Shown here: positions 25,294-53,900 of the stretch, in pieces
Layout of the letters: the number at the start of each line of letters is the position of its first letter
Position numbering within the stretch: position 1 is the stretch's first letter
From: Eledone cirrhosa
Taxonomy: Eukaryota
Length of the DNA: 64,000 bases
Reading direction: 5' to 3'
Assembly (NCBI GenBank): GCA_964016885.1
Contig: OZ024744.1
Span: 115,444,001 to 115,508,000 of the forward strand
Translations under genes and position numbers: made by a program
Notes under the pieces: model-generated
What the model was told of the DNA's origin: nothing
Database searches by the model: none
What the model saw: the letters and a program-made list of their open reading frames with translations, nothing else

Positions 25294-25770
25294 CCATGTG
25301 TCTAACACACGTGGACATGCCTACAAGATCAGAAAACAGCACAGCTCCCATGACTTTCGTAGAGAACTTTTTCACGCTCAGAGTTGCTGAAGCATGGAAC
25401 AAACTGCCTGCGTCAGTTGTTAGCTGCCTAGACACTGCATCCTTTAAGACACTCATGCTTCCAGAAATACGCCAAAACTACACCTGATGTACCACTTCCA
25501 TACACATGCACACGTGTGTATCATGACTCGTGCACTGTTCATTTTACTGATGTTTGTGCATTGCCCTATGTACTGTACATGCACTTTTTTGATGAGTTGT
25601 GGTGCACCTGGGCACTGTACACAATATTTCATTATCGTTATTATTATTATATCATGACTCATACACTGTTCATTTTCCAGACATTTGTACATTGTTCTAT
25701 GTACTATACATGCACCTTTGATGAGTTGTAGTGCACCTGAGCACTGTACACAATAATTTCATTATTATTA
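25294..25770 (+). mobile_element. 5'-truncated CR1-type LINE 3' end inserted in the satellite (copy 1)
   Basis: Encodes FFTLRVAEAWNKLPASVVSC, matching the end of the RT ORF at 39835-40581. Followed by 3'UTR, GTGCACCTGAGCAC hairpin and (ATT)n tail. Confidence 0.92.
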
Positions 25771-29952: not shown

Positions 29953-30429
29953 CCATGTGTCTAACACACGTGGACATGCCTACAAGATCAGAAAACAGCA
30001 CAGCTCCCATGACTTTCGTAGAGAACTTTTTCACGCTCAGAGTTGCTGAAGCATGGAACAAACTGCCTGCGTCAGTTGTTAGCTGCCTAGACACTGCATC
30101 CTTTAAGACACTCATGCTTCCAGAAATACGCCAAAACTACACCTGATGTACCACTTCCATACACATGCACACGTGTGTATCATGACTCGTGCACTGTTCA
30201 TTTTACTGATGTTTGTGCATTGCCCTATGTACTGTACATGCACTTTTTTGATGAGTTGTGGTGCACCTGGGCACTGTACACAATATTTCATTATCGTTAT
30301 TATTATTATATCATGACTCATACACTGTTCATTTTCCAGACATTTGTACATTGTTCTATGTACTATACATGCACCTTTGATGAGTTGTAGTGCACCTGAG
30401 CACTGTACACAATAATTTCATTATTATTA
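29953..30429 (+). mobile_element. CR1-type LINE 3' end inserted in the satellite (copy 2, duplicate of copy 1)
   Basis: Same sequence and junctions as 25294-25770, offset 4659 bp; identical translated ORFs in the track. Confidence 0.92.
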
Positions 30430-33400: not shown

Positions 33401-33449
33401 GTATTAAAAGATTTAAAACATTCCAAAAATGAAAAGTACCACATCCTAC

Positions 33450-33647
33450 CTTCTACTTTAAAGAGGCCTGATAGACTTTCATCTCCATCTTGCCACTTTC
33501 GAGACCGCTCACTGCTGGTATATGAGGCACTCTTTGATGTTGGAAAATTAGCTGAGTTTGTATCTCGCAAAGTTTTTTTGTTCTGGAATGTTTTAGCTTT
33601 TTGAGAGACCTTTAGGTCAGAATACTGTAGCATCATTGCCATTAAAT
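33450..33647 (-). CDS. SYNRG: Synergin-gamma-like internal coding exon E5 (198 nt, phase 1-1)
   Basis: Acceptor ctaattttAG|AT, donor GAAG|GTAGG. Reads (D)LMAMMLQYSDLKVSQKAKTFQNKKTLRDTNSANFPTSKSASYTSSERSRKWQDGDESLSGLFKVE(G); phase fits exon 37231-37377. Confidence 0.8.
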
Positions 33648-33719
33648 CTAAAATTAGACATAAGAAATTCTTCAATAAAAGTTTATAAATATTGTGTACA
33701 TCAATTATTATTATTATCA

Positions 33720-33965
33720 TTATGGTTAGCTTTGCCTTTCATCCATACGGGGATGATAAAATTAAGTACCAGTAATATACTGGAGTAAATCTAATTGACT
33801 TTCCCTTTTCTCTTCAAATTGCTGACCTTGTGCCAACTGTAGAAACAATTATTATCATTATAGTTCATCCTTACATGTTCAGTAAAATAAAGTACCAGTA
33901 ATAAACTGGGATTGATTTAATCGATTTTTGCCCCCACCTAAAAATGGCTGGCCTTGTGAAACCAT
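33720..33965 (+). mobile_element. Two partial SINE copies (3' halves)
   Basis: CTTTGCCTTTCATCCATACGGGGATGATAAAATTAAGTACCAGT and a second ...AAATAAAGTACCAGT...GCTGGCCTTGTG, matching the SINE at 40706-40903. Confidence 0.75.
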
Positions 33966-34431
33966 TATTTTCAAATTAAGGCAGGATTCGTTAAAGAATT
34001 AAAATATTTGATTCGGCTCTATGCACTGTTAGTTCAACTATTATACAGTTTCACTTTGTCTTCCAACTTTCCAGATCAATAAAGAAATTATCAGTTCCAT
34101 GTTGGTGCATCCTTCTCTCTCCTGCCACTTCATGAATGTTCCTCAGGATCAAGGGAGGGGGGTTGAGAGAGAGGGTTCTGAGGTGGCTGTGTCTACTAAC
34201 AACTGACAAAAAGATATTTAAAACACTTAATGAAAGCAACATAGATACTACCATGTCATACCATATTGTGATTAACAACCATAGTTCATTTTTATGCCAC
34301 GTTACTAATCTAAAGTCAGTATTAAGCTAGATGGCTTGTTAGGCAGGTGCTTAAACTTATTTTGTGGTCTGGAGCGACTGATCACACATGACCCCACCCA
34401 CAGCAGCACACCACTACATGACAGGCTAACC

Positions 34432-35791
34432 CTGTCACTACCATGTAGCATTACATCAGATGTCCATTGAAACATGCTAGCTTCATTTCTCTCGAGCCTC
34501 TATATAACCTCTACATTAACTACCATGTCTCACTACCATGTAAAATTACATCAGATGTCCATTGAAATATACTAGCTTCATTTCTCTCCAGTCTCTATAT
34601 AACCTCTACATTAACTACCCATGTCACACTACCATGTAACATTACATCTGATGTCCATTGAAACATGTTAGCTTCATTTCTCGCCGTCTTTATATAACCT
34701 CTACATTAACTACCCATGTCTCACTACCATGTAACATTACATCAGATGTCCATTGATACATGCTTGCTTCATTTCTCTCCAGTCTCTATATAACCTCTAC
34801 ATTAACTACCCATGTCACACTACCATGTAACATTACATCTGATGTCCATTGAAACATGTTAGTTTCATTTCTCTCCAGTCTCTATATAACCTCTACATTA
34901 ACTACCCATGTCTCACTACCATGTAACATTACATCAGATGTCCATTGAAACAGTCTAGCTTCATTTCTCTCCAGTCTCTATATAACCTCTACATTAACTA
35001 CCCATGTCTCACCACCATGTAACATTACATCAGATGTCCATTGAAACATGCTAGGTTCATTTCTCTCCAGTCTCTATATAACCTCTACATTAACTACCAT
35101 GTCTCACTACCATGTAACATTACATCAGATGTCCATTGATACATGCTTGCTTCATTTCTCTCCAGTCTCTATATAACCTCTACATTAACTACCCATGTCT
35201 CACTATCATGTAACATTACATCAGATGTCCATTGAAACATGCTAGCTTCATGTCTCTCCAGTCTCTATATAACCTCTACATTAACTACCCATGTCTCACT
35301 ACCATGTAACACTACATCAGATGTCCATTGTAACATGCTAGCTTCATTTCTCTCCAGTCTCTATATAACCTCTACATAAACTACCCATGTCTCACTACCA
35401 TGTAACATTACATCAGATGTCCATTGTAACATGCTAGCTTCATTTCTCTCGAGCCTCTATATAACCTCTACATTAACTACCCATGTCTCACTACCATATA
35501 ACATTACATCAGATGTCCATTGTAACATGCTAGCTTCATTTCTCTCGAGCCTCTATATAACCTCTACATTAACTACCCATGTCTCACTACCATATAACAT
35601 TACATCAGATGTCCATTGAAACATGCTAGCTTCATTTCTCTCCAGTCTCTATATAACCTCTACATTAACTACCCATGTCTCACTACCATGTAACATTACA
35701 TCAGATGTCCATTGAAACATGCTAGCTTCATTTCTCTCCAGTCTCTATATAACCTCTACATGAACTACCCATATCTCACTACCATGTAACA
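34432..35791. repeat. Second 96-bp satellite array (~14 monomers), same orientation as the main array
   Basis: Same 96-nt monomer as 1-33386, separated from it by ~1 kb of unique sequence containing exon E5. Confidence 0.97.
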
Positions 35792-35804
35792 TTGGACTTC
35801 ATAA

Positions 35805-37135
35805 CCTTCTTCTCCTCCTCCTTCTTATTTGCCAATCTATTCCTGGGAAGATCATGGCGGCAGAGTCCTCAAATACCACCTTCCAGAAGGTCCTGTCAGA
35901 AGCAACCATCTCCAACTGGATCCCAGCCAAGCTCATCTATGTTATGTAACCATCTTGCTCAGTCTCTACCCCTGGGTCTCCGGCCAGTTAGTTTTGCCCA
36001 TAAAATCTGTCCAGAGATTTTTTTCCTGAGACATTCTAACCACATGTCTGTAGTATCAGAGCTGTATCTCTCAATTTAGAGATTCTTTCCTGAGACATTC
36101 TAACCACATGTCATAGTATCAGAGCTGTGATCTCTCAATTCAGAGATTCTTTATGAGACATTCTAACCACATGTACATAGTATCAGAGCTGTGATCTCTC
36201 AATTCAGAGATTCTTTCCTGAGACATTCTAACCACATGTACATAGTATCAGAGCTGTGATCTCTCAATTTAGAGATTCTTTCCTGAGACATTGTAACCAC
36301 ATGTCATAGTATCAGAGCTGTGATCTCTCAATTCAGAGATTCTTTCCTGAGACATTCTAACCACATGTACATAGTATCAGAGCTGTGATCTCACAATTCA
36401 GAGATTCTTTCCTGAGACATTCTAACCCCATGTCCATAGTATCAGAGCTGTGATCTCTCAATTCAGTGATTCTTTCCTGAGACATTCTAACCACATGTCC
36501 ATAGTATCAGATATGTGATCTCTCAATTTAGAGATTCTTTCCTGAGACATTCTAACCCCATGTCCATAGTATCAGATATGTGATCTCTCAATTCAGAGAT
36601 TTTTTCCTGAGACATTCTAACCCCATGTCCATAGTATCAGAGCTGTGATCTCTCAATTCAGTGATTCTTTCCTGAGACATTCTAACCACATGTCCATAGT
36701 ATCAGATATGTGATCTCTCAATTCAGAGATTTTTTCCTGAGACATTCTAACCACATGTCCATAGTATCAGAGCTGTGATCTCTCAATTCAGAGATTCTTT
36801 CCTGAGACATTCTAACCACATGTACATAGTATCAGAGCTGTGATCTCTCAATTCAGAGATTCTTTCCTGAGACATTCTAACCATATGTCATAGTATCAGA
36901 GATGTGATCTCTCAATTCAGAGATTCTTTATGAGACATTCTAACCACATGTCATAGTATCAGAGCTGTGATCTCTCAATTCAGAGAAGTAACCGCTCTAC
37001 TTTGAGTGATTCGCTGATTTCCGAGTTACGCACTCTATCAAGTAATGTTACTCCAAAGACCCTTGTGATGGACCCCATTTCAGCCACTTGTATTGGCGAT
37101 CATCTTTTTTCAGTCATTAACATTCATGACCCTAG
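35805..37135 (-). mobile_element. Degenerate RTE-clade LINE 3' fragment with an internal tandem array
   Basis: Minus strand reads approximately IQVAEMGSITRVFGVTLLDRVRNSEISESLKVERLLL*IERSQL, then the array, then the GRRPRG-type C-terminal segment; typical RTE ORF end. Confidence 0.85.
36012..36985 (-). repeat. 64/65-bp tandem array (~15 copies)
   Basis: Unit GAGATTCTTTCCTGAGACATTCTAACCACATGT(C)CATAGTATCAGAGCTGTGATCTCTCAATTCA; reverse complement of the unit at 47650-49090. Confidence 0.96.
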
Positions 37136-37230
37136 GTAAGGGTTGGAGCAAATACCAAATTGAAGATAGCTTCTTCTGATTATTGAATGTTTCAGAATAA
37201 AAATAATATAATCATATTCAATTGTTTTAC

Positions 37231-37377
37231 CTTTCGTTTCTTCTTCTTCATTGGCTTTACCCAAAGGATTAGTTACAGATGAAGATAAACCTAGAGAACC
37301 CATCCATGGTTTCTCAGACTGTTCAGAACTTGGTCCTTGCATAAAGTCTCCAAAACTATCTGGATCACTGTCTATTG
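37231..37377 (-). CDS. SYNRG: Synergin-gamma-like coding exon E4 (147 nt, phase 1-1) with DSFGDF motif
   Basis: Acceptor tatttcAG|CA, donor AAAG|GTAAAA. Reads (A)IDSDPDSFGDFMQGPSSEQSEKPWMGSLGLSSSVTNPLGKANEEEETK; FGDF fits the gamma-adaptin-ear-binding motif of synergin/aftiphilin. Confidence 0.85.
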
Positions 37378-37435
37378 CTGAAATAAGATAAGATAAATGG
37401 ATGGTCGTGGTGAGCGGATAATAATTATTATATAC

Positions 37436-37492
37436 ACCGTCTAACCGATGCTAGCGTAGAAGATAGACGTTAAATGTTAATGATGATGATGA
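37436..37492 (+). mobile_element. Short RTE-type 3' tail remnant
   Basis: CCGTCTAACCGATGCTAGCGTAGAAGATAGACGTTAAA...(GAT)n; reverse complement of the ends at 41258 and 47032. Confidence 0.6.
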
Positions 37493-37948
37493 CACAAACA
37501 AATACACATTCTTCTATTCGATATCAACAAAGGCTAGTTACACACAAACATAATACACAATTTTACTGTGACTCTGTTGTTTTTCCTATGTTATCACAAT
37601 AACTTCAAAGCAAGTTATTAACTTAATAACATTATTAAAGTAGCAGCTCTTGTTAATCGTTCATTCACTACTGGCTATGGAAAACATAGCTCTGAACTCT
37701 CTGAGACAAACAGACATATATCTGTCAGCCAATAATGAACAAACTGACCAACCTACCAAATCATATATACAATAAACACACATGAAAATCCCCTAACATT
37801 TGGTGAACACACCTGGTCACAACCAATAAACATATTGCTACTACAAATCTGCATACCTGTCGGTGTTAGAACAACAGCTTTAGATATATGTGGAATGTGG
37901 TATAGGACTTTAAGAGTTATGTACATATATATGTGAAAATCTACATAC

Positions 37949-38238
37949 CTGTTACTGTTGCATTAGAGGTTGGAACAGCTTTAGATGTATGTGGAATGTG
38001 GACTTTCGGTTTTGATTTTGGAACTTTACCAAACATGGACTCAATCATGCGGTCAGGATCAGAAGATACAACGCCTAATCGACCAAATAGTTTCAATTTC
38101 ATTTGTTGTTCATGGAAATGTTTTCCTTTTCTCTGGTCTTCAACAATATGAGCATTAACAGGCACTCCAGTTATCACTTGACCAGGAACGACACCATGTA
38201 CAATACCTGGCACCATTGTTGCATGGAACTGTTGGCTA
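37949..38238 (-). CDS. SYNRG: Synergin-gamma-like coding exon E3 (290 nt, phase 2-1)
   Basis: Acceptor tttctttgtcAG|T, donor ACAG|GTATG. Reads SQQFHATMVPGIVHG...EDQRKGKHFHEQQMKLKLFGRLGVVSSDPDRMIESMFGKVPKSKPKVHIPHTSKAVPTSNATVT; resembles the N-terminal coiled segment of synergin gamma (human FEEQKQKLRLL, recalled). Confidence 0.85.
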
Positions 38239-38481
38239 CTGACAAAGAAATTTAAAGAAATTAAATAAAAACCTTTTTAAAAAAAGAAAAAAAAAAAGAA
38301 AAGAAAAAGAAAAGAAAAAAAACGAAACAAAAATAAAATAGAATAAAATTTACAACTAATTTTTTTTTTTTTGTTTGTAACAAAATCTCTAATTAAATAA
38401 ATTCTTTATAATTGTTCTATGAAACCAAATAACAGAAGTCAACATAAGTCAAACAAGTGACATCATTCAATATCAGTCATA

Positions 38482-38707
38482 TACCGTCTATACTCGAATA
38501 CAAGACCCCCCCCCCCCCCCAAAAAAAAAAAATATATACTTGAATATAAGCTGAGGAATATGTGACCAAAAAAATGTATGGTAAAATGGGGTGGGGGTGG
38601 CTTATATAACCATCTAAACAATGTGTTGATTAGCTGCCTCGTTTTGGATTTTCACCTACCTCCCTGTCATCAAATATGAGAGTCAGCTTATATTTGAGTA
38701 TATACTA
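38482..38707. mobile_element. Degenerate Tc1/mariner-pogo-type MITE
   Basis: Left TACCGTCTATACTCGAATACAAG and right CTTATATTTGAGTATATACTA form imperfect terminal inverted repeats with TA ends. Confidence 0.6.
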
Positions 38708-38774
38708 AATCACCATGAATCATGAATCACCGAAGCTATGTGAATCACATGTCACATTACTCAATGTAAGTCTC

Positions 38775-39535
38775 ATGAGCCAACATGAGTCAACATAAGC
38801 CACACAACCCAATATGAGCCCTATGAGCCATATGACCCAATGTGAGCCAACATGAGCCACATGAGCCAACATGAGTCAACATAAGCCACACAACCCAATA
38901 TGAGCCCTATGAGCCATATGACCCAATGTGAGCCAACATGAGCCACATGAGCCAACATGAGTCAACATAAGCCACACAACCCAATATGAGCCCTATGAGC
39001 CATATGACCCAATGTGAGCCAACATGAGCCACATGAGCCAACATGAGTCAACATAAGCCACACAACCCAATATGAGCCCTATGAGCCATATGACCCAATG
39101 TGAGCCAACATGAGCCACATGAGCCAACATGAGTCAACATAAGCCACACAACCCAATATGAGCCCTATGAGCCATATGACCCAATGTGAGCCAACATGAG
39201 CCACATGAGCCAACATGAGTCAACATAAGCCACACAACCCAATATGAGCCCTATGAGCCATATGACCCAATGTGAGCCAACATGAGCCACATGAGCCAAC
39301 ATGAGTCAACATAAGCCACACAACCCAATATGAGCCCTATGAGCCATATGACCCAATGTGAGCCAACATGAGCCAACATAAGTCCTATGAGTGACATGAG
39401 CCAACATGGGTCCTATAAGTCACATGACCCAGTATGACCCAACATGAGCCAACATGAGCCAACATGAGCCAACATGAGTCACATGACCCAGTATGAGCCA
39501 ACATGAGTCCTATGAGTCAACATGAACCAACATGC
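38775..39535. repeat. 86-bp minisatellite (~7 copies) built from ~10-bp ATGAGCCAAC subunits, with a degenerate 10-mer tail
   Basis: ATGAGTCAAC recurs at 38871 and 39301 (5 x 86 bp); simple 10-mer repeats at ~39370-39535. Confidence 0.93.
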
Positions 39536-39727
39536 AGTATTTAAGTAGAGATTTGGTTGTTACTAAAAAAAAGCATGTAAAATATACAATCTATCTTCTA
39601 AATATTTTTTAGGTAATTTTCTGTTATTGTTTTACTTCTGGTTTTACGATGCATAACTCTATTTTTAAATGTTCACATATAACCCCTTTCACATCAAATT
39701 GCCCAAAACAGAACCTGGTTCTATGAT

Positions 39728-40700
39728 ATGACATAGATGCCAACTTAAGGAATGCCACAGTACTAAAGTACGCAGACGACATCAAGCTGTACCTTGAGAT
39801 AAAAAGGACAGATCCTGAACACTATAGATCTTGCTTGCAGTCTGACCTAGACACAATGCAACAGTGGATCTCAGACTGGCAACTCAAGCTAGCTGTGGAC
39901 AAGTGCACCACCATGCATTTTGGGAGTAAAAACCCAGCGTCCACATACTCCCTCCACAGCACTAATATCAAGAAGTCTTCCTGTGAACGTGACCTGGGCA
40001 TTACGGTCAGCAGCGATTTGCGTTGGACGAGGCACGTCTCTAAAATTGTCAAGAGGGCCGAGGGTGTCTTAGCATCACTCAGCAAGACCTTTGTCAGCCG
40101 CTCTCCAGATATCTATTTAAGGCTGTATACAGCTATGGTGCGACCACACTTAGAATTTGCATCACCAGTCTGGAACCCCTATCTTGCTCAGGACATTGAC
40201 TGCCTGGAAACTGTTCAGAGACGTGCAACCAAGCGAATACCCTCCATCAGGCATCTACCATACTCTGAGCGCCTTGCTTCCCTGGGCATGGTTTCATTGA
40301 AGCTCCGACGCCTGGCAACTGACTTGGTAAACACCCACAAAATTGTTAACCATGTTGCCAACAACAACCCTGAGTACTTTTTCGATTTCCATGTGTCTAA
40401 CACACGTGGACATGCCCACAAAGTAAGAAAACAACACAGTTCCCATGACTTTCGGAAACATTTTTTCACGCTCAGAGTTGCTGAAGCATGGAACAAACTA
40501 CCTGCATCAGTTGTTAGCTGTCGAGACACTACATCCTTTAAGGCCTCCATGCTTCCCGAGATCCGCCAACAGAACAGCTAACACATACACACATGTACTT
40601 CCCTGACATTTGTGTATTATTCTATGTACTATATTGACGAGTTGTAGTGCACCTGAGCACTTTACACAATAATTTCATTATTATTATTATTATTATTATA
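39728..40700 (+). mobile_element. 5'-truncated CR1/L2-group LINE: RT C-terminus, 3'UTR and (TTA)n tail
   Basis: Open frame from 39730: DIDANLRNATVLKYADDIKLY...LQSDLD...ERDLGI...MVRPHLEFASPVWNPY...LETVQRRATK...TRGH...FFTLRVAEAWNKLP, stop at 40581. YADD catalytic motif; 3' hairpin AGTGC-ACCTGA-GCACT at 40646-40661. Confidence 0.95.
39730..40581 (+). pseudogene. LINE ORF2 reverse-transcriptase fragment (uninterrupted, no start or endonuclease)
   Basis: Track ORF 39835-40581 extends upstream in frame through YADD to a stop at 39724-39726. Confidence 0.9.
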
Positions 40701-40705
40701 TAACA

Positions 40706-40903
40706 AAGGCGGTGAATTGGCAGTATCGGTAGAGGGTCGGACGCCATGCTTTCCAGCATAGTTACGTCCCTTTACGATCTGAGTTCAAATCCCGCCGAGG
40801 TTGACTTTGCCTTTCATCCTTACGGGGTCGATAAAATAAAGTACCAGTAATGCACTGGATAATTGCTGGCCTTGTGCCTAAAGTAGAAACAATTATTATT
40901 ATA
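40706..40903 (+). mobile_element. tRNA-derived SINE, near full length
   Basis: A-box-like TGGCAGTATCGG, B-box-like GAGTTCAAATCC, core GACTTTGCCTTTCATCCTTACGGGGTCGATAAAATAAAGTACCAGT, (ATT)n tail; resembles the abundant octopus SINE family. Confidence 0.88.
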
Positions 40904-41089
40904 TAACACTATTTATATTTATCTTCCATCATAATTTTATTTAAGAACCTTTGTTATGTTCCAAACACCATCTTAATAATGATAAAGTGTATTTCTAAAA
41001 TTATTTGAAAACCACAGAATGTTCTTCACCAGGAGTATTGTGATGGAACGGTTAAATTAAAACCTTTCATCATATTTTTATAAGAACAA

Positions 41090-41237
41090 TTATTTGCACA
41101 AGGCCAACAATTTTGGGCAAGGGGAAATTCAATTAAATAAACCCCAGTGCATTACTGGTACTTTATTTTATTGGACCTTGTAAATATGAAAGATGAAAGA
41201 CAAAGCTAACCTTGGCATGATTTGAACTCAGAATGTA
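41090..41237 (-). mobile_element. SINE copy, same family, antisense
   Basis: ACAAGGCCAACAATTTT...ACTGGTACTTTATTTTATT...ATTTGAACTCAGAA is the reverse complement of 40706-40903. Confidence 0.8.
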
Positions 41238-41257
41238 AACTAAATAGTAACTAAATG

Positions 41258-41540
41258 TCATCATCATCATCACCGTTTTACGTCCGTTCTTCCACGCTAG
41301 CATGGGTTAGACGGATTGTCCTGTTGTGGGCAGTGTCTGGTCAGCTGACCATGCCTTGCTCATACAGGAACTGATCCTGGCTTGATTTCTACAGCTGGAT
41401 GCCCTTCCTAACACCAACCTCATTTACAGTGAGTGCTAGGTGCTTTTTTGTGGCGCCTACACGTCCACTTTACAGTGTGGGCTGGGTGCTTTTTTGCCGT
41501 GGCACCTCCACGACCACCTTGCGGTGGGGGGTGTGGGGGC
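41258..41540 (-). mobile_element. SINE-like element with RTE-type 3' tail
   Basis: (CAT)n-CCGTTTTACGTCCGTTCTTCCACGCTAGCATGGGTTAGACGG...ACAGCTGGATGCCCTTCCTAACACCAA; second copy at 47032-47215. Confidence 0.7.
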
Positions 41541-41639
41541 AAATGTAGGGTAACTAAATAGTAACTAAATGTAGGGTAACTAAATAGTAACTAAATATAA
41601 AATTATATTGGAAGATTTTAATTTACATTTAAAATGGGA

Positions 41640-41898
41640 GGTTTTATTTGATAGAACCAGAGCTGGTTTTGGCCGGGTTGGTAACTAAAGGGTTAAATAG
41701 GGACTCTTTATAATGGGTGGTTTTATTTGATAGAACCAGAGCTGGTTTTGGCCGGGTTGGTAACTAAAGGGTTAAATAGGGACTGTTTATAATGGGTGGT
41801 TTTATTTGATAGAACCAGAGCTGGTGTTGGCTGGGTTGGTAACTAAAGGGTTAAATAGGGACTCTTTATAATGGCCGGGTTGGTAACTAAAGGGTTAA
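41640..41898. repeat. 79-bp tandem repeat (~3.3 copies) of a TTAA-type MITE right end
   Basis: GTTTTATTTG at 41641, 41720 and 41799; each unit contains ATAGAACCAGAGCTGGTTTTGGCCGGGTTGGTAACTAAAGGGTTAA. Confidence 0.9.
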
Positions 41899-41944
41899 TA
41901 AGTTAACATAAAAAAATGAAAGAAAATAAGAATAAAGAACTTAC

Positions 41945-42060
41945 GCTTGTTGTGCATGGAAACTGTGAGCCATTTGTGGTGTATATGGTGGAGGTGGAGG
42001 AATGTTGCCTGTATTCATCATGTTGGCTGGTATAGCCATTGGGGTGGCTATATAGGTTCC
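41945..42060 (-). CDS. SYNRG: Synergin-gamma-like coding exon E2 (116 nt, phase 0-2)
   Basis: Acceptor aattctttAG|GGA, donor GC|GTAAG. Reads GTYIATPMAIPANMMNTGNIPPPPPYTPQMAHSFHAQQ(A); not in the ORF track; PPYTPQM resembles human PPGPQYTPDM (recalled). Confidence 0.85.
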
Positions 42061-42607
42061 CTAAAGAATTTTTACAAAACAAAATGGTGTCAGGGACATA
42101 TTTACTAAAACAAAGACAACAGCATAAAGAAACCTACACATCACATGTAGCAATATCTCTGGTATTAATGTTACATGTAAATATATCACATATAGTGACA
42201 TACTTATTAGTATTACGACATGCGTTATATTTCTGGTAATATCTCTGATAACATCACCACATGTGTGATATCTGATAATATTGCCACGTGTGTTATATCT
42301 GGTAACATCACCACATGTGTGATATCTCTGGTAACATCATGACACAGGTATAATTACACAGGTATGGTCAGGTAAGGCTTTTGCCTGCTAGTAGTACCAT
42401 GTAACCCAGTACAACCAGCTTTGTGGTATAGTGGTCGGTGACTAAACCAGCTCCCCGACCAGACCTTGATAAAAAGGTAGATGAACTCCTCAGAGTCAAC
42501 AGTCATCCACCCCAACTATGGGTTAAATAGCCTCACAGTCCCACAATTGGCCAAGTGTGGTGAGTACAGCTACACCCCTGGCATGACCAAAACCAAACAG
42601 AAAGAGG

Positions 42608-43280
42608 TGGAGGTCAACCAGGGAGGGGTTCCTCCAACAGGAGTGACAAGGTCCTGGATTAGATGGAGGTCAACCAGGGAGGGGTTCCTCCAACAGGAGG
42701 GACAAGGTCCTGGATTAGATGGAGGTCAACCAGGGAGGGGTTCCTCCAACAGGAGTGACAAGGTCCTGGATTAGATGGAGGTCAACCAGGGAGGGGTTCC
42801 TCCAACAGGAGTGACAAGGTCTTGGATTAGATGGAGGTCAACCAGGGAGGGGTTCCTCCAACAGTAGTCACAAGGTCTTAGATTAGATGGAGGTCAACCA
42901 GGGAGGGGTTCCTCCAACAGGAGGGACAAGGTCTTAGATTAGATGGAGGTCAACCAGGCAGGGATTCCTCCAACAGGAGTGACAAGGTCTTGGATTAGAT
43001 GGAGGCCAACCAGGGAGGGGTTCCTCCAACAGTAGTCACAAGGTCTTAGATTAGATGGAGGTCAACCAGGCAGGGGTTCCTCCAACAGGAGTCACAAGGT
43101 CTTGGATTAGATGGAGGTCAACCAGGCAGGGTTCCTCCAACAGGAGTCACAAGGTCCTGGATTAGATGGAGGTCAACCAGGGAGGGGTTCATCCAACAGG
43201 AGTGACAAGGTCCTGGATTAGATGGAGGTCAACCAGCGAGGGGTTCCTCCAACACGAGTGACAAGGGTCTAGATTGGATG
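42608..43280. repeat. 56-bp minisatellite (~12 copies)
   Basis: Unit TGGAGGTCAACCAGGGAGGGGTTCCTCCAACAGGAGTGACAAGGTCCTGGATTAGA at 42608, 42664, 42720, 42776 and onward. Confidence 0.95.
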
Positions 43281-43634
43281 GAATGGAATTAGACAAGTAT
43301 AATTACATGAATATATGATAATATATTTGGCTGAGTGACACAGTTGTAGATATATCTTAACAACAACAAATATTTAAACAAGAAATAACATGATATTACA
43401 AATATTTCTATCACCATTTTACCTTTTAAAATAAGTGGAGGACAAACATTTCTATATGTATAAAATATTTGATAAAAATATTTAATAAATATGGCATCTT
43501 TAAAAAGGGCAAAGAGGGGAGTAAAATGAATGGAAACAAAATTTGGAAGTAAAAATAAAGAAAAAGGATAAGAAAGGGATGATGGATTATACTTATAAAA
43601 GGATACATCAGGGGTAGAGGGAAGCAATAATAAT

Positions 43635-44262
43635 GATTTCTTAGGCACAACAAGCACACCAATTTAGGGGGAAAAGATGATTAAATTGACCCCAGTACTT
43701 AACTGGTACATTATTTTATAGTCTCCCCCACCAGAAGGATGAAAAATGAAGTTGGGCTTGGTGAGATTTGAACTAAAAAGGGAAAAAAGCTGGAAAAAGT
43801 GCTCCAAGGTATTTATTCAAATGTTCAAAACAATCCTGCCAATTCTCTACACTAATTTCTTATAAGGCCCAAAATAATCAATATAAACCCCAGAACTTAA
43901 CTGCTACTTTATTTTATCAATCTTCAAACGAAGAAAGGTCAAGTTGACTTTGGAAGGATTTGAACTCAGAACATAAAGTGTCATAACTATATATTGCAAG
44001 ACATCTCGTCTAAGGCTCTGATTATTCCGGCATTAAAAAAATAATACTGGTTTCTGATTTAGGCACAAGGCCAGCAATTTTGGGAAAGGGAAGTTGATTA
44101 AATTAACCCCAGTATGTTACTAGTATTTTATTCTATCGACCTCATAAGGATGAAAGGCAAAGTTAACCTCGGCGGAATTTGAACTCAGAACATAAAGGTC
44201 CATAACTATATGTCATAAAGTATTTCATCGAATGCTCAAATGATTCTGCCAATCCACAATAA
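43635..44262 (-). mobile_element. Cluster of three head-to-tail antisense SINE copies
   Basis: Three occurrences of CCCCAG...(G)GTAC/TTATTTTAT...GATGAAA...ATTTGAACT at ~43640-43850, ~43860-44030 and ~44055-44255. Confidence 0.78.
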
Positions 44263-44399
44263 TAATAATGTGTGATCCGTAAAGGCAGGATTTTTCACAA
44301 TTGCATCTTGATTTGTCTTGACACAGTTTTTCTGATTCCAACTGTTCTGACAAACCAGAAAATCAGTTACTCAGTTGTTCAAGGTTAAATTTGAGATTA

Positions 44400-45620
44400 C
44401 CCTTTTTGTTTTCATGGCAAAGAGAAATTTATTCTGACCTTTGCTCTAACTAATCTATGATCTGATATTTCGGGCATGCTGAGAGCTATGTTGTCCAGAA
44501 TAATTTGACAAATGGAAGACTTAAATATCAGAATGAAATCAATCTAATTTTTGGTTTTTCCATCAGATGTCCAAGTGTGACACTTTTTTCTTTTGAAACA
44601 TGGAGTGGGTCACAATGAATTTGTTTCTAGTACAGAATTTTGCAAAGAGTTCATCATAGACATCGTCAATCCCAAGAGTTTACCAATGGAAGATGGATAG
44701 TTTGTAAGAAGATTCCCTATTTTGTAATTAAAGTCTCCCATAATAAAAAGATGATCTCTAGCTGGCATGTTGTCTACAATAGACTGGAGTCAGTCTGAGA
44801 GTTCAATAACTTCTTCAATAGGATGATTGGTCTCAGTTCAATAACTTCTTCAATAGGATGATTGGTCTCAGTTCAATAACTTCTTTATTAGGATGATTGG
44901 TCTCAGTTCAATAACTTCTTTATTAGGATGATTGGTCTCAGTTCAATAACTTCTTTATTAGGATGATTGGTCTCAGTTCAATAACATCTTTATTAGGATG
45001 ATTGGTCTCAGTTCAATAACTTCTTTATTAGGATGATTGGTCTCAGTTCAATAACTTCTTTATTAGGATGATTGGTCTCAGTTCAATAACTTCTTTATTA
45101 GGATGATTGGTCTCAGTTCAATAACTTCTTTATTAGGATGATTGGTCTCAGTTCAATAACTTCTTTATTAGGATGATTGGTCTCAGTTCAATAACTTCTT
45201 TATTAGGATGATTGGTCTCAGTTCAATAACTTCTTTATTATGATGATTGGTCTCAGTTCAATAACTTCTTTATTAGGATGATTGGTCTCAGTTCAATAAC
45301 TTCTTTATTAGGATGATTGGTCTCAGTTCAATAACTTCTTTATTAGGATGATTGGTCTCAGTTCAATAACTTCTTCAACAGAATGATTGTTCTGAAAGTT
45401 CAATAACTTCTTTAATAGAATGATTGGTCTGAGCATTCAATAACTTCTTTAATAGAATGTTTGGTCTGAGAGTTCTATAACTTCTTTAATAGAATGTTTG
45501 AAGAGAGTGACAATACTGGCAATATAGATACACACGTAAAATATCACTCGTTTGTTGCCTCGTTTAACATACACTCCCCGTACAGGAATTAATTTCTATG
45601 ATTGTGTATGTTAAAAGTTT
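44400..45620 (-). mobile_element. Decayed RTE-type LINE AP-endonuclease fragment interrupted by a 35-bp array
   Basis: Minus strand reads LQSIVDNMPARDHLFIMGDFNYKIG (~44715-44790), FCTRNKFIVTHSMFQKK, HTWTSDGKTKN*IDFILI (~44525-44585) and ISDHRLVRAKVRI (~44430-44468): GDFN, IDFIL and SDH motifs of LINE endonucleases. Confidence 0.8.
44801..45500. repeat. 35-bp minisatellite (~20 copies)
   Basis: Unit GTTCAATAACTTCTTTATTAGGATGATTGGTCTCA; 44941 to 45361 is 12 x 35 bp; degenerate at the right end. Confidence 0.96.
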
Positions 45621-45911
45621 TTATGAGACATTTGTTTATTTATAATTTATACATTTCATTGAGAGGTCATATACAGGGGTTCAGATTATTGTCTAGCAGA
45701 GATAACTTTCCTGTGGTGTTAGGATATGTCTATGAGAAACTCAACCTTCAGCCTCCAAGACCCATGGTAGATTTTTGAGACTTATTTTAGGAAGTAAGTA
45801 ACATCTTCACCGCTGGGAAATATGGTATATATAAATATATAAATATATATAAAATTAGAATTTTATTTCTCGCCCTAGCACAGCTGATACATAAATGTAA
45901 GTATGCATGCG

Positions 45912-45980
45912 TACACATATATATATATACATCATCATCATCATCATCATGATAATAATCATCATCATCATCATCACCAT
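45912..45980. repeat. (AT)n/(ATC)n microsatellite, tail of the adjacent RTE fragment
   Basis: atatatatatatac atcatcatcatc... seen directly. Confidence 0.9.
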
Positions 45981-46170
45981 TGTTTTTACATTTTTCCACG
46001 CTTGCAAGGGTTGGACAGATCCTTAAAAGACTCTCTCCACTCATTGTGTTACTTCGTCATCTCCTCTGTGAGTCTCAGCAGTTTGAGGTTAGCTTGAATC
46101 ACCTCTGCCCAAGTCTTTCTTGGTCTTCCTCTACTGCAGCTTCCTTCCACTGGGATTACTTGGCACTTCA
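45930..46170 (-). mobile_element. RTE LINE 3' terminal fragment
   Basis: Minus strand reads KCQVIPVEGSCSRGRPRKTWAEVIQANLKLLRLTEEMTK*HNEWRES, followed by a (GAT)n tail. Confidence 0.82.
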
Positions 46171-46738
46171 TATGGACTTGTAAAGTAGTTCCAATTTTGT
46201 GAGAAGATATGTTGTATTCCTACACCAGAGGTATTAGACACATACACATGGACTTGTAAAGTAATTCCAATCACTACATTTTTGTTGTTGTTTTATTGTT
46301 GTCCGTTTTTTTATTAATGTTATCCCACGGTAGGTTTATTTTATTCTATTAAATTTCTAGCATTTCCAAATGTTAGAAAATTGGGTGAATATGGATAAAA
46401 AATGGCAAGAAATATTAATTGAATGTAAAAAAAATAAACAAAAACAAATTAAAAATAAACATAGTGAAAAGAGGAATAAAATGGTAAAAGGAAGAAAAGA
46501 ATATAAAAAGTGAGATATGAAATACCTCTTCAGTATCACTAGAATTACAAGTCTCATCACATTGCTGTCCCATGGAGAATGGAGAAAGGAACTTTATTTT
46601 AAACAAATATAGATCTATTTACAGAAGATTATGGAGAAGAGCCCTTCAAATGTTGTTTCAAACAAAAAACAAATATAAACACAACATCGAATTTTGACCA
46701 CTTTTGTTACACATGTCAGATTATCTATTTTCACTGAC

Positions 46739-46966
46739 TTAACCCTTTAGCATTTAAACTGGCCATATCCGGCCAGAATTCTCTCACCTCTTTCTGTTCA
46801 AACTGGCTGTAACTGGCCACTCATACAGATGTTAAGTTATTGTTCTCAAAATAAATAATATCAAAATCTCAAAGATTCAATGTTATGTGAGATATTACGT
46901 GAGGTAAAGCCTTTACCACAAAAATACAATAGTATATATAGAGTAATGTAAATGCTAAAGGGTTAA
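46739..46966. mobile_element. TTAA-flanked (piggyBac-type) MITE
   Basis: TTAA-CCCTTTAGCATTTA ... TAAATGCTAAAGGG-TTAA: perfect 14-bp TIRs with TTAA on both sides. Confidence 0.85.
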
Positions 46967-47031
46967 TAATATTTCACTGACTTAATAATATATTATGAAG
47001 AACAAAAAATCACTTTCTAAGCCCTGTATAT

Positions 47032-47215
47032 GATATCATCATTTCCATTTAGCGTCAATTCTTCCATGCTTGCATGGGTTAGACAGGTCGTCCATGCCGA
47101 GAGGCAAGTATGGCCAGGGTTGGTCATGTCATACCTTGCTCCAACAAACTATAAATTTGGCCAGGTATTTCACAGCTGGATGCCCTTCCTAACACCAAGT
47201 ACATTTACTGTGTAG
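47032..47215 (-). mobile_element. SINE-like element with RTE-type tail (same family as 41258-41540)
   Basis: TTCCATGCTTGCATGGGTTAGACAGG...CAGCTGGATGCCCTTCCTAACACCAA. Confidence 0.7.
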
Positions 47216-47544
47216 GACTGGATGGCTCCATTATGAGGTGGGACAGGTGACATGGCCATGCCAAACCCTTCTCACAGTGGAACCACAATTTTGGAGCCCG
47301 GTACAGGATGGCACCAATACGAGGATATGAATATGTTAATTTATAAAAATTACATCTAATACCTTCTCATGGTATCTTCCTATTGTGAATTAACTACTTT
47401 CGTGGTCTCACAGAAAATATAGCTGTCCAGGCATGATCATGTTTAGATTAAAGAGGTATATACATTATACCTATATATATATCAGAATTATTCCATTCTA
47501 GTATGAAGTGAACAGATTATGCAGTGGAATCCATTTTACTGTTT

Positions 47545-49285
47545 TCAGTTGTGAAGGGTCGTTGGAGTAATCTTACTTGCTAGAGTGTGAAGCTCAGAGA
47601 TCAGAGACTCACTCCAGGTAGAGCCGCTCCTTCTCTGGGTTGACAGATCGAAGCTCTGATACTACCAACATGTGGTTAGAATGTCTCAGGAAAGAATCTC
47701 TGAATTGAGAGATCACAGCTCTGATACTATGACATGTGGTTAGAATGTCTCAGGAAAGAATCTCTGAATTGAGAGATCACAGCTCTGATACTACAGATAT
47801 GTGGTTAGAATGTCTCAGGAAAGAATCTCTGAATTGAGAGATCACAGATCTGATACTATGACATGTGGTTAGAATGTCTCAGGAAAGAATCTCTAAATTG
47901 AGAGATCACAGCTCTGATACTATGACATGTGGTTAGAATGTCTCAGGAAAGAATCTCTAAATTGAGAGATCACAGATCTGATACTATGACATGTGGTTAG
48001 AATGTCTCAGGAAAGAATCTCTAAATTGAGAGATCACAGCTCTGATACTATGACATGTGGTTAGAATGTCTCAGGAAAGAATCTCTAAATTGAGAGATCA
48101 TAGCTCTGATATTATGACATGTGGTTAGAATGTCTCAGGAAAGAATCTCTGAATTGAGAGATCACAGCTCTGATACTACAGACATGTGGTTAGAATGTCT
48201 CAGGAAAGAATCTCTGAATTGAGAGATCACAGCTCTGATACTACAGACAAGTGGTTAGAATGTCTCAGGAAAGAATCTCTGAATTGAGAGATCACAGCTC
48301 TGATACTATGGACATGTGGTTAGAATGTCTCAGGAAAGAATCTCTGAATTGAGAGATCACAGCTCTGATACTATGACATGTGGTTAGAATGTCTCAGGAA
48401 AGAATCTCTGTATTGAGAGATCACAGCTCTGATACTATGACATGTGGTTAGAATATCTCAGGAAAGAATCTCTGTATTGAGAGATCACAGCTCGGATACT
48501 ATGACATGTGGTTAGAATGTCTCAGGAAAGAATCTCTAAATTGAGAGATCATAGCTCTGATATTATGACATGTGGTTAGAATGTCTCAGGAAAGAATCTC
48601 TGAATTGAGAGATCACAGCTCTGATACTACAGACAAGTGGTTAGAATGTCTCAGGAAAGAATCTCTGAATTGAGAGATCACAGCTCTGATACTATGACAT
48701 ATGGTTAGAATGTCTCAGGAAAGAATCTCTGTATTGAGAGATCACAGCTCTGATACTATGACATGTGGTTAGAATATCTCAGGAAAGAATCTCTGTATTG
48801 AGAGATCACAGCTCTGATACTATGACATGTGGTTAGAATATCTCAGGGAAGAATTTCTGTATTGAGAGATCACAGATCTGATAATATGACAAGTGGTTAG
48901 AATATCTCAGGAAAGAATCTCTGTATTGAGAGATCACAGCTCTGATACTACAGACATGTGGTTAGAATATCTCAGGAAAGAATCTCTGAATTTGAGAGAT
49001 ATGTGGTTAGAATGTCTGAGGAAAGAATCTCTGAATTGAGAGATCACAGCTGTGATACTATGGACATGTTGTTAGAATGTCTCAGGAAAGAATCGCTGGA
49101 CAGATTTTACAAGCAAAACTAACTGGCAGGAGACCGAAGGGTAGATCCCGAGCAAGACGGTTGGATAACATTCATGAGAGTGGCTGGTCCTGCTTGGGAA
49201 TCCAGCCGAATCAGTTTGAGATGGCTGCCTCCAACAGGACCTGCTGGAAAGCATGTCTTGGGACTCTGCTTTGAGATCCCTCCCA
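47545..49285 (+). mobile_element. Degenerate RTE LINE 3' fragment with an internal tandem array
   Basis: Reads RVVGVILLARV*SSEIRDSLQVEPLLLWVDRSKL*YY, then the array, then MSQERIAGQILQAKLTGRRPKGRSRARRLDNIHESGWSCLGIQP. Confidence 0.87.
47650..49090 (+). repeat. 64/65-bp tandem array (~22 copies)
   Basis: Unit TGAATTGAGAGATCACAGCTCTGATACTATG(G)ACATGTGGTTAGAATGTCTCAGGAAAGAATCTC. Confidence 0.96.
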
Positions 49286-50523
49286 AGCAGCAGCAGTGTA
49301 GTTACAAAATTTATTCAAACTATTTCGTGATGAATCTACAAAGTAGGCTCCCTGCAGCTACTAAAACTAAATAGCACTCATATTTCACTTAAATTACACC
49401 CTACTGTCTTTCAAACCATGGAAGATATTTTAGATATTAGAATACTTTGACCATATGTATCTCTGCTTGACCAGGGCTGACCTGGCCTAAACCTTATTAG
49501 GTTAACCTTACCTTTAGTTCACAGTAGCATTCCAGTGCAAGAATTTCAACAAGTTTACCCTTACAGTGACAATGAGAGTCATTCGAACAATGAAACTTGT
49601 GAAAGTGGTGAGGAAAGTAGTGAATCAGGTGAATAAATAGTGTAGCCCTGACACAGCTGATACTGACAAGTGTGGTGGAGATTATAGATGAAGGGTGGTT
49701 AGACACATTTACTGTGCCTTGTGTTGGTTCTGTCCATTAGTTTGTCTGTAATCATTACTCTTGAGCTGTCTATGTAACTATTTATTTTTTTACCCAGGAG
49801 CCCAGGTGGAGGGTAGAGTTGGACACAGAAGCCCAGGTCTGAGAGGGTTAAAACTAGCACTCCAAGGAAACTCCTATGAATTGATGCCCTAGTTCTCATA
49901 GCTGAATCTGTGGGAGAGTTAGGAATTTCAAGAATGGAAGAAGAACCTAGAGCTGAAAGGCCTAAAAACAAACTTAAAAACTAACCTCATCACCACTGCA
50001 CCTTGCACCCATACTTCCTTTCAATACCACCCATTAGCTACTCCTCTTCTAACATCCTAGTAGCTACTCACTCTACCTCCTGTGCACTTCCTCCAGTACC
50101 ACCCTATCACAATCTCTCCATCACTACCCCATACACATGCACTATCAACCACACCACTATAACCCCTCTCCCAATACACTATTAACCACCACTTCACAGG
50201 TAGCTGACCCAGTCCTCTAGGCCCATCTGACCAAAGCAGATTTTCATTAGCATCTTCTTGTTCTGAGGTAGCAGTGAAGTGTGTAAAGTACATAAAAGTG
50301 AATTTCCTATCTTGACATGTAACTAAATACAGTTGATTTGAAACTATGAATTATGAGATGATAGAAAATATTGTTTGTTCAACCATAATTAAGTTTGCTG
50401 CAGTGTTTTTAGTCTCTTAGTTAAGGGAAGGAATAATTTAAGCTGTAATAGAAAACTATTTTAATACAATCCAGATAATAAATAAGTAAAAGTAAAGAAC
50501 TGGCTTATTTTCAGAATAATTAC

Positions 50524-50672
50524 CTGAACGGGATATATACCCTGGGCTATCATAGGATTTCCAGCCAGCATTCCAGGAGATACCATTCCATAGTGGGCAC
50601 TATTGGCAGGAACTGAGTAAAACTGGGCAGCTGAAGGTGATGCTGTTTGAGGACTCTGCAGTGGATTAAACC
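50524..50672 (-). CDS. SYNRG: Synergin-gamma-like coding exon E1, first seen in this window (149 nt, phase 1-0)
   Basis: Acceptor aattttAG|GG, donor CAG|GTAAT. Reads FNPLQSPQTASPSAAQFYSVPANSAHYGMVSPGMLAGNPMIAQGIYPVQ; P/M/G/Q-rich like the synergin N-terminus; phase 0 fits E2. Confidence 0.8.
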
Positions 50673-50939: not shown

Positions 50940-53900
50940 ACTGTCCCAGAGGTAAGAGATATACTGTAATGTAGTCTAGGATGTGTGTATGTAACACCAC
51001 TGTCCCAGATGTGGTAGCAGTACTGTAATGTAGTCTAGGATGTCTGTGTGTAACATCACTGTCCCCGATGTGGTAGCAGTACTGTAATGTAGTCTAGGAT
51101 GTCTGTATGTAACAACACTTTCCTAGATGTGGTAGCAGTACTGTAATGTAGTCTAGGATGTCTGTATGTAACACCACTGTCCCAGATGTGGTAGCAGTAC
51201 TGTAATGTGGTCTAGGATGTCTGTGTGTAACATCACTGTCCCCGATGTGGTAGCAGTACTGTAATGTAGTCTAGGATGTCTGTATGTAACAACACTTTCC
51301 TAGATGTGGTAGCAGTACTGTAATGTAGTCTAGGATGTCTGTATGTAACAACACTGTCCCAGATGTGGTAGCAGTACTGTAATGTAGTCTAGGATGTCTG
51401 TATGTAACTACACTGTCCTAGATCTGGTAACAGTACTGTAATGTGGTCTAGGATGTCTGTATGTAACAACACTGTACCAGATGTGGTAGCAGTACTGTAA
51501 TGTGGTCTAGCATGTCTGTATGTAACAACATTGTCCTAGATGTGGTAGCAGTAATGTAATGTAGTCTAGGATGTCTGTATATAACAACACTGTCCCAGAT
51601 GTGGTAGCAGTACTGTAATGTGGTCTAGGATGTCTGTATATAACAACACTGTCCCAGAGGTGGTAGCAGTACTGTAATGTGGTCTAGGATGTCTGTATAT
51701 AACAACACTGTCCCAGGTGTGGTAGCAGTACTGTAATGTGGTCTAGGATGTCTGTATGTAACAACACTGTACCAGATGTGGTAGTAGTACTGTAATGTGG
51801 TCTAGGATGTCGGTATATAACAACACTGTACTAGATGTGGTAGCAGTACTGCAATGTAGTCTAGGATGTCTGTATTTAACAACACTGTCCCAGGTGTGGT
51901 AGCAGTACTGTAATGTAGTCTAGGATGTCTGTATGTAACAACACTGTCCCAGATGTGGTAGCAGTACTGTAATGTGGTCTAGGATGTCTGTATGTAACAA
52001 CACTGTGCCAGATGTGGTAGCAGTACTGTAATGAGGTCTAGGATGTCTGTATGTAACAACACTGTCCCAGCTGTGGTAGCAGTACTGTAATGTGGTCTAG
52101 CATGTCTGTATGTAACAACATTGTCCTAGATGTGGTAGCAGTAATGTAATGTAGTCTAGGATGTCTGTATATAACAACACTGTCCTAGATGTGGTAGCAG
52201 TACTGTAATGTGGTCTAGGATGTCTGTATATAACTACACTGTCCCAGAGGTGGTAGCAGTACTGTAATGTGGTCTAGGATGTCTGTATATAACAACACTG
52301 TCCCAGAGGTGGTAGCAGTACTGTAATGTGGTCTAGGATGTCTGTATATAACAACACTGTCCCAGATGTGGTAGCAGTACTGTAATGAGGTCTAGGATGT
52401 CTGTGTGTAACAACACTGTCCCAGATGTGGTAGCAGTACTGTAATGTTGTCTAGTATGTCTGTATGTAACAACATTGTCCTAGATGTGGTAGCAGTAATG
52501 TAATGTAGTCTAGGATGTCTGTATATAACAACACTGTCCTAGATATGGTAGCAGTACTGTAATGTGGTCTAGGATGTCTGTATATAACAACACTGTCCCA
52601 GAGGTGGTAGCAGTACTGTAATGTGGTCTAGGATGTCTGTATATAACAACACTGTCCCAGAGGTGGTAGCAGTACTGTAATGTGGTCTAGGATGTCTGTA
52701 TATAACAACACTGTCCCAGATGTGGTAGCAGTACTGTAATGAGGTCTAGGATGTCTGTGTGTAACAACACTGTACTAGATGTGGTAGCAGTACTGTAATG
52801 TAGTATAGGATGTCTGTATTTAACAACACTTTCCCAGCTGTACCATATGTGGTAGCAGTACTGTAATGTGGCCTAGGATGTCTGTGTGTAACAACACTGT
52901 ACCAGATGTGGTAGCAGTACTGTAATGGTCTAGGATGTCTGTATATAACAACACTGTCCCAGAGGTGGTAGCAGTACTGTAATGTGGTCTAGGATGTCTG
53001 TATATAACAACACTGTCCCAGATGTGGTAGCAGTACTGTAATGAGGTCTAGGATGTCTGTGTGTAACAACACTGTACTAGATGTGGTAGCAGTACTGTAA
53101 TGTAGTATAGGATGTCTGTATTTAACAACACTTTCCCAGCTGTACCATATGTGGTAGCAGTACTGTAATGTGGCCTAGGATGTCTGTGTGTAACAACACT
53201 GTACCAGATGTGGTAGCAGTACAGTAATGTAGTCTAGGATGTCTGTGTGTAACATCACTGTCCCCGATGTGGTAGCAGTACTGTAATGTAGTCTAGGATG
53301 TCTGTATGTAACAACACTTTCCTAGATGTGGTAGCAGTACTGTAATGTAGTCTAGGATGTCTGTATGTAACACCACTGTCCCAGATGTGGTAGCAGTACT
53401 GTAATGTGGTCTAGGATGTCTGTGTGTAACATCACTGTCCCCGATGTGGTAGCAGTACTGTAATGTAGTCTAGGATGTCTGTATGTAACAACACTTTCCT
53501 AGATGTGGTAGCAGTACTGTAATGTAGTCTAGGATGTCTGTATGTAACAACACTGTCCCAGATGTGGTAGCAGTACTGTAATGTAGTCTAGGATGTCTGT
53601 ATGTAACTACACTGTCCTAGATCTGGTAACAGTACTGTAATGTGGTCTAGGATGTCTGTATGTAACAACACTGTACCAGATGTGGTAGCAGTACTGTAAT
53701 GTGGTCTAGCATGTCTGTATGTAACAACATTGTCCTAGATGTGGTAGCAGTACTGTAATGTGGTCTAGGATGTCTGTATATAACAACACTGTCCCAGAGG
53801 TGGTAGCAGTACTTTAATGTGGTCTAGGATGTCTGTATATAACAACACTGTCCCAGGTGTGGTAGCAGTACTGTAATGTGGTCTAGGATGTCTGTATGTA

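What the first reader, a model, noticed from the sequence alone, without database searches (positions are those of the whole stretch)
36012..49090. Inverted ~1-kb arrays bracket three exons: potential long dsRNA, circRNA or editing switch
Seen: the 64/65-bp arrays at 36012-36985 and 47650-49090 are near-identical reverse complements, in the E4-E5 and E1-E2 introns. Their RTE flanks extend the complementarity. Known: intronic reverse-complementary matches promote back-splicing and are ADAR substrates, and coleoid cephalopods edit heavily. Inference: the pre-mRNA can pair in many registers and loop out E2-E3-E4 (553 nt). This could give a circRNA, or a frameshifting skip because E1 ends in phase 0 and E5 starts in phase 1.
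Basis: partly seen in the sequence, partly recalled or inferred. Interest (0 to 1): 0.75.

Follow-up and report, generated by a model that had tools for sequence, protein, structure and literature searches.

The report
LINE-born minisatellite pair in octopus introns
Two oppositely facing blocks of a 65-letter repeat sit in introns of an octopus membrane-trafficking gene; the same repeat sits inside dead jumping-gene copies all over the genome and is likely kept alike by copying between sites, so the predicted RNA pairing here is likely a by-product rather than a switch.

Summary
The anatomy is real. A 15-unit and a 23-unit array of a 64/65-bp repeat (36012-36986, 47632-49098) are 92-94% reverse-complementary and bracket three exons (553 nt) of a synergin-gamma-like gene. 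The pair is not purpose-built. The unit is a piece of a LINE's ORF2 end, amplified in place inside truncated LINE remnants, and I found 33 such arrays on 11 contigs. Across loci the units are 92-93% alike while their LINE hosts are only about 81% alike, and two unit variants are largely confined to this contig. This points to exchange between loci. The window's two arrays match each other no better than other nearby pairs (lowest of 8). The one spliced contig available (depth 13) runs linearly E1-E2-E3-E4 and on, with no skip or back-splice; contigs cannot prove absence. The arms are 10.6 kb apart in different introns. Verdict: a new LINE-derived case of a known kind (retroposon-derived dispersed satellites, as in snake sSat). 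It incidentally makes a potential dsRNA; some intronic editing is plausible, a regulatory switch unlikely. The scan noted LINE-born satellites before on other DNA of this genome.

The parts
36012..36986 (-). Left minisatellite array, 15 units of 64/65 bp, LINE-sense on the minus strand
35800..36011 (-). 3' flank of the left LINE remnant (end of ORF2, broken)
36987..37110 (-). 5' flank of the left LINE remnant (5'-truncated)
47632..49098 (+). Right minisatellite array, about 23 units of 64/65 bp; first unit diverged like an old host copy
47554..47631 (+). 5' flank of the right LINE remnant (5'-truncated)
49099..49290 (+). 3' flank of the right LINE remnant (end of ORF2, broken)
50524..50672 (-).
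46526..46564 (-). Candidate 39-nt in-frame cassette exon, not included in the one spliced contig
   Evidence: an acidic 12-residue insert sits at the same junction in P0002
41945..42060 (-). Exon E2, 116 nt
37949..38238 (-). Exon E3, 290 nt; 95% identical to Octopus vulgaris synergin gamma-like protein
37231..37377 (-). Exon E4, 147 nt
33450..33647 (-). Exon E5, 198 nt, inside a 1.1-kb island of the 96-bp satellite

Best explanation
Two truncated copies of one LINE family sit in opposite directions in two introns of a synergin-gamma-like gene, each with the same 65-bp piece of its coding end amplified in tandem, and exchange between loci likely keeps the units alike, so the predicted kilobase RNA duplex is likely an incidental by-product. 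Shown: hosts are old and about 80% alike, the unit is colinear with host ORF2, the same array recurs at many loci, units are more alike than hosts, and the spliced contig is linear. Inferred: a duplication hotspot at this segment seeds short tandem copies; slippage or unequal exchange lengthens them; non-allelic gene conversion or reinsertion of excised repeat DNA, favoured by proximity, spreads and homogenises the dominant 65-bp type. In the nascent RNA the arms could pair only if the 8.5-kb upstream intron is still unspliced when the second arm is made 10.6 kb later. The likely outcome is occasional intronic A-to-I editing and at most trace circle or skip products, with no regulatory role.
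For: Family is dispersed: 33 arrays of the 64/65-bp type on 11 contigs, up to tens of kb. Most host copies have no such array: 0 of 50 copies fetched (of 80 matching a flank motif) carry a long 65-bp array, and a longer host copy encodes a reverse transcriptase (PF00078, E 7e-7). Units beat hosts: 93.0% modal and 92.0% random units among 22 arrays, against 81.2% for their 3' flanks; 82.4% for the same segment among 23 single-unit copies, only 1 of 253 such pairs reaching 94%. Array hosts do not cluster in a flank tree (14 changes, shuffle mean 15.4, 144 of 500 as low). Variants are regional: the 64-bp deletion unit is in 7 of 7 arrays on this contig and 1 of 26 elsewhere, a second variant in 4 of 7 and 0 of 26. 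Six arrays found only as neighbours, not by ranking, are still 92-94% like the window's. No special matching of this pair: 94.1%, lowest of 8 pairs under 25 kb. The spliced contig is linear and is the only contig on E1, E3 and E4.
Against: Arrays were mostly found by similarity to the right array, which inflates unit identity. The flank tree has no well-supported branch, so one array-bearing subfamily is not excluded. The same-contig excess (0 of 2000 permutations) comes mainly from one other contig: arrays on this contig are 93.3% alike, no more than against that contig (93.2%). An inverted pair of this length is uncommon: 8 of 9 neighbouring arrays at 23 other loci face the same way, and the longest inverted match there was 718 bp. 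RNA evidence is one run of contigs at depth 13, kind not on record, and rare forms are dropped from contigs. The arrays themselves were not examined in RNA.
Confidence: 0.75

Rival explanations
1. The pair is a working RNA switch: pairing loops out the three exons to make a circRNA or a frameshifted, decay-bound mRNA, and ADAR editing tunes it.
For: Strong predicted duplex in many registers; skip gives an immediate stop. Left arm ends 245 nt from the E4 donor. Most octopus editing is intronic or in 3'UTRs (PMC9699675, passages); young repeats are the main ADAR targets in animals (PMC9989829, passages). Inverted orientation is the minority among neighbouring arrays.
Against: Linear contig only. 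Right arm is 5.6 kb from the E2 acceptor and arms are 10.6 kb apart in different introns; Alu editing decays on an 800-bp scale and is weaker across segments (PMC4066801, passages; human data, shorter repeats). The pair is not better matched than unrelated neighbours. Transposon-driven circRNAs are argued to be mostly by-products (PMC8516420, passages).
Confidence: 0.07
2. An array-bearing LINE subfamily carried a few tandem units when it transposed; each copy then expanded on its own, and unit similarity reflects that shared start plus search bias rather than later exchange between loci.
For: Short 2-3-unit copies with parent-like letters exist, and other periods (70, 111, 123 bp) recur with shared junctions. 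The flank tree is unresolved.
Against: Units inherited with the hosts should have drifted as far as the flanks (about 81%), not stayed at 92-93%; derived variants are shared among arrays of one contig whose hosts are unlike; the window's own pair has 94.6% units in 72-78% flanks.
Confidence: 0.13
3. The pair arose by a local inverted duplication of one array-bearing element, or is an assembly artefact.
For: Adjacent flipped blocks of this satellite occur elsewhere on the contig.
Against: Flanks are only about 80% alike and have different 5' ends, sequence beyond them is unrelated; exons between the arrays keep order and strand in the spliced contig, and a second run's contigs match the flanking DNA exactly. 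No contig crosses an array.
Confidence: 0.05

Closest known systems
SINE-derived satellites (sSat) of squamates, PMC10702118 (abstract, Discussion and snake section read)
   Same: A short internal piece of a retroposon (67 nt in snakes) is amplified in place at many loci with host sequence still attached; units are more alike across loci (89%) than the parent elements (64%); rare other periods coexist with one dominant type.
   Different: Here the host is a LINE and the unit is coding sequence at the end of ORF2; many loci keep both host flanks; variants shared within one contig were measured; the species is an octopod.
Rsp-like spread into 1.688 clusters in Drosophila, PMC7403614 (abstract only)
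   Same: A satellite occupies dispersed older repeats, with microhomology and circular DNA as suggested routes.
   Different: There two unrelated satellites are involved; here the satellite is homologous to its host. Circular DNA was not tested here.
Intronic reverse-complementary repeats flanking circRNA exons and inverted Alu ADAR substrates (PMC8516420, PMC4066801, passages; PMC4201285, search listing only)
   Same: Inverted repeat copies in introns bracket internal exons and can pair in the pre-mRNA.
   Different: Arms are tandem arrays of about 1-1.5 kb, 10.6 kb apart; no circle, skip or editing is shown here.
LINE-derived satellites: cetacean common satellite, PROsat, chicken HinfI (PMC9659126, passages)
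   Same: Satellite sequence comes from LINE 3' or ORF2 sequence.
   Different: Those are described as satellites similar to LINE parts; here small arrays still sit in register inside individual LINE remnants.

Membership tests
Retroposon-derived dispersed satellite (sSat-like) | Unit is an internal segment of a retroposon, colinear with attached host sequence | tested here: met
   Both arrays continue into host sequence on both sides; single-unit copies carry the same segment once
Retroposon-derived dispersed satellite (sSat-like) | Many loci with the same unit and junction | tested here: met
   33 arrays on 11 contigs, a lower bound
Retroposon-derived dispersed satellite (sSat-like) | Units more alike across loci than the parent elements | tested here: met
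   92-93% against 81-82%; search bias noted, neighbours found without ranking agree
Retroposon-derived dispersed satellite (sSat-like) | Parent is a SINE (for sSat proper) | tested here: not met
   Parent encodes a reverse transcriptase: works like sSat, is not sSat
Retroposon-derived dispersed satellite (sSat-like) | Subtelomeric preference | not tested
   Hits lean to small contigs but no unbiased census was made
Non-LTR retrotransposon, RTE clade | Reverse transcriptase domain upstream of the unit | tested here: met
   PF00078 at E 7e-7 in a longer copy
Non-LTR retrotransposon, RTE clade | Placement in the RTE clade (Rex3/Expander-like) by tree or library | not tested
   Label is recalled from motif resemblance and comes from no call
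circRNA-promoting intronic complementary pair | Reverse-complementary matches in both flanking introns | tested here: met
circRNA-promoting intronic complementary pair | Back-splice junction in RNA | tested here: inconclusive
   No contig leaves E4 other than the linear one, depth 13, contigs only
ADAR hyper-editing substrate | Clustered A-to-G changes in RNA over the arms | not testable with these tools
Synergin gamma (SYNRG/AP1GBP1) | Sequence match and EH domain | tested here: met
   4 of 43 candidates hit, 3 named synergin gamma-like at 90-95%; EH domain in P0001 and P0003; 10 exons map in order

The most novel reading that the evidence does not exclude
A satellite born inside a LINE colonises and re-homogenises old, dead LINE remnants across the octopus genome, turning short 80%-matched inverted relics into kilobase 94%-matched duplexes. 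It would renew intronic dsRNA, ADAR targets and back-splice pairs without any new transposition, and this gene would show an edited duplex or a 553-nt circle as a result.
Probability: 0.2. Interest if true: 0.6.

Novelty: new member of a known kind. Interest (0 to 1): 0.3.

Why it matters
As an RNA switch it would matter, but that is unsupported. What is supported is a clean natural test system for how satellites spread: many small arrays, each tagged by an old host whose flanks record its ancestry, with units that cross those ancestries. It also suggests a route by which strong intronic dsRNA could be renewed in a heavily editing lineage, testable with existing kinds of RNA data.

Tried and rejected
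No RNA holder listed for exon E3; this is no evidence on expression, and one run of unknown kind proved to hold a spliced contig. Editing marks written into the genomic units, suggested by earlier scan notes: rejected, A>G 4.36 against T>C 4.35 events per base in 34 arrays. Special co-evolution of the two arrays: rejected. One array-bearing clade of hosts: not supported, tree unresolved. Pfam on five single exons gave nothing above cut-off. Orthologous introns of other octopods could not be reached with these tools, so conservation is untested. An exact count of array ends in the genome was not obtained; all counts are lower bounds. Supplements of PMC9699675: files 1 and 3 had no hit for synergin or circRNA terms, the PDF (file 2) was not searched and may bear on octopus circRNA lists. 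Literature searches for this family and for a synergin circRNA (listings only) showed no matching report by title or abstract start; the library lacks most subscription papers. Rows dropped before counts: 9 of 31 arrays and 6 of 29 single-unit copies lacked a usable flank or segment; arrays under 8 units or of other periods were left out.
Full report
Observation. Tandem Repeats Finder gives arrays at 36012-36986 (period 65) and 47632-49098 (period 64). They align on opposite strands at 92-94% over about 1 kb in many registers, and the flanks continue the match at 80-84% for about 100-150 bp. Five minus-strand exons with canonical splice ends lie at 50524-50672, 41945-42060, 37949-38238, 37231-37377 and 33450-33647; the three between the arrays total 553 nt.

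The gene. Exon E3 matches synergin gamma-like proteins of Octopus vulgaris, O. bimaculoides and Argonauta at 90-95% (4 hits among 43 candidates), and these carry an EH domain. Most of that span is satellite: about 111 kb of a 96-bp repeat and 53 kb of a 59-bp repeat. A possible 39-nt in-frame cassette exon at 46526-46564 keeps the frame open and sits where the O. bimaculoides protein has an acidic insert.

What the arrays are. Each array is embedded in a truncated LINE remnant and is colinear with the broken end of its ORF2. Longer copies of the family encode a reverse transcriptase; the RTE, Rex3-like label is recalled from motifs and was not tested. A third copy 65 kb beyond the right array has the segment once. 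Of 80 genome matches to a flank motif I fetched 50. None carried a long 65-bp array; 7 had two to eight units, mostly with longer periods. Searches ranked by similarity found the array at many other loci, some tens of kb long, and other periods of 70, 111 and 123 bp ending at nearly the same place in the host. So this segment is a duplication hotspot and the 65-bp type dominates: 33 arrays on 11 contigs, a lower bound.

Why the two arrays are alike. Among 22 arrays with a usable 3' flank (of 31), modal units are 93.0% and random units 92.0% identical, but flanks only 81.2%. Among 23 single-unit copies (of 29) the same segment is 82.4% identical, and 1 of 253 pairs reaches 94%. In the window itself units are 94.6% alike in flanks of 72-78% by global alignment. 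Array hosts do not cluster on a flank tree, though the tree has no firm branch. The 64-bp deletion unit occurs in 7 of 7 arrays of this contig and 1 of 26 elsewhere, a second variant in 4 of 7 and 0 of 26. First units are more diverged than interior ones (93.0% against 97.1%; 18 of 28 arrays), and the right array's first unit looks like old host sequence. These patterns fit exchange between loci after insertion (inference). Limits: ranking by similarity inflates identity, although six arrays found only as neighbours are still 92-94% like the window's; and overall identity among arrays of this contig (93.3%) is no higher than against another contig (93.2%).

Is the pair special? The two arrays are not each other's best match and are the least alike of 8 pairs under 25 kb (94.1%, mean 95.7%). 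A second array within 10-20 kb is common: 7 of 23 other loci. Orientation is mostly direct, 8 of 9 neighbours, some of which look like one split or duplicated array; one is inverted at 12 kb. Inverted matches of 300 bp or more at 88% or more occur in 9 of those 23 regions, of 500 bp or more at 90% in 4, the longest 718 bp. So this pair is at the long end but of an ordinary sort. The same gene has a 1.37-kb inverted LINE pair (84%) 5 kb apart within one intron and flipped blocks of a 29-bp satellite further downstream.

RNA. The predicted duplex has 1137 pairs and is far more stable than self-folding, loop cost ignored; a skip would stop at the second codon of E5. One public run holds a 1787-nt contig at depth 13 that joins E1 to E2, E3 to E4 and continues beyond; depth over E1, E3 and E4 equals that one contig. 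Contigs drop rare forms, so this shows the linear form dominates in that sample and nothing more. No raw reads were listed and the arrays were not examined in RNA. Genomic units show no A>G strand bias. In human Alu pairs editing decays with a scale of about 800 bp and is weaker across gene segments (PMC4066801, passages); longer arms may reach further. In octopus most editing is intronic or in 3'UTRs and circRNAs are low overall (PMC9699675, passages). Transposon-driven circRNAs in mammals are argued to be mostly by-products (PMC8516420, passages). My estimates: detectable editing on the arms about 0.4, detectable circle about 0.2, regulatory role under 0.1.

Comparison and verdict. The closest described case is the SINE-derived satellites of snakes: a 67-nt internal unit, host ends attached, units 89% alike against 64% for the SINEs (PMC10702118, two sections). 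This is the LINE-coding-sequence counterpart in an octopod: a new member of a known kind. The finding as an RNA switch is unsupported; as a marker system for satellite spread it is of modest interest. Score 0.3.

Noticed in passing
window 1-35793 and beyond (about 111 kb), 50962-64000 and beyond (53 kb): The synergin-gamma-like gene is stretched over at least 195 kb by giant intronic satellites; exon E5 survives in a 1.1-kb island (33327-34448) inside the 96-bp array, and the gene still gives a correctly spliced contig.
   Followed up: partly
window 1-35793 against G000:C28 about 115.561-115.604 Mb: The 96-bp satellite and a 43-kb 73-bp satellite upstream of the gene share a core in inverted orientation (about 68-74% over 130-340 bp).
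   Followed up: partly
window 25300-25784 and 29959-30443: Two apparently identical 485-bp LINE 3'-end inserts in the 96-bp array, 4.66 kb apart, likely duplicated with the satellite; a related LINE end lies at about 39700-40700.
   Followed up: no
window 46526-46564: Candidate 39-nt in-frame cassette exon inside the proposed loop, absent from the one spliced contig.
   Followed up: partly
G000:C28 about 115.344-115.353 Mb (L040): A 29-bp satellite with many alternately flipped blocks just downstream of the last mapped exon, a closer-range hairpin source than the pair studied.
   Followed up: partly
G000:C28:120344735-120346423 (L098): A 1.7-kb flipped block inside a 50-kb-plus array of the same 64/65-bp repeat.
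   Followed up: no
L115, L117, L121-L123, L125, L128, L215-L217: The same LINE segment is also amplified with periods of 70, 111 and 123 bp at other loci; the 123-bp type shares one junction across several contigs.
   Followed up: partly
L102 and L110 (C25:7.385 and 4.762 Mb); L051 and L052: Pairs of loci with identical flanks megabases or hundreds of kb apart: recent segmental duplicates or assembly duplicates.
   Followed up: no
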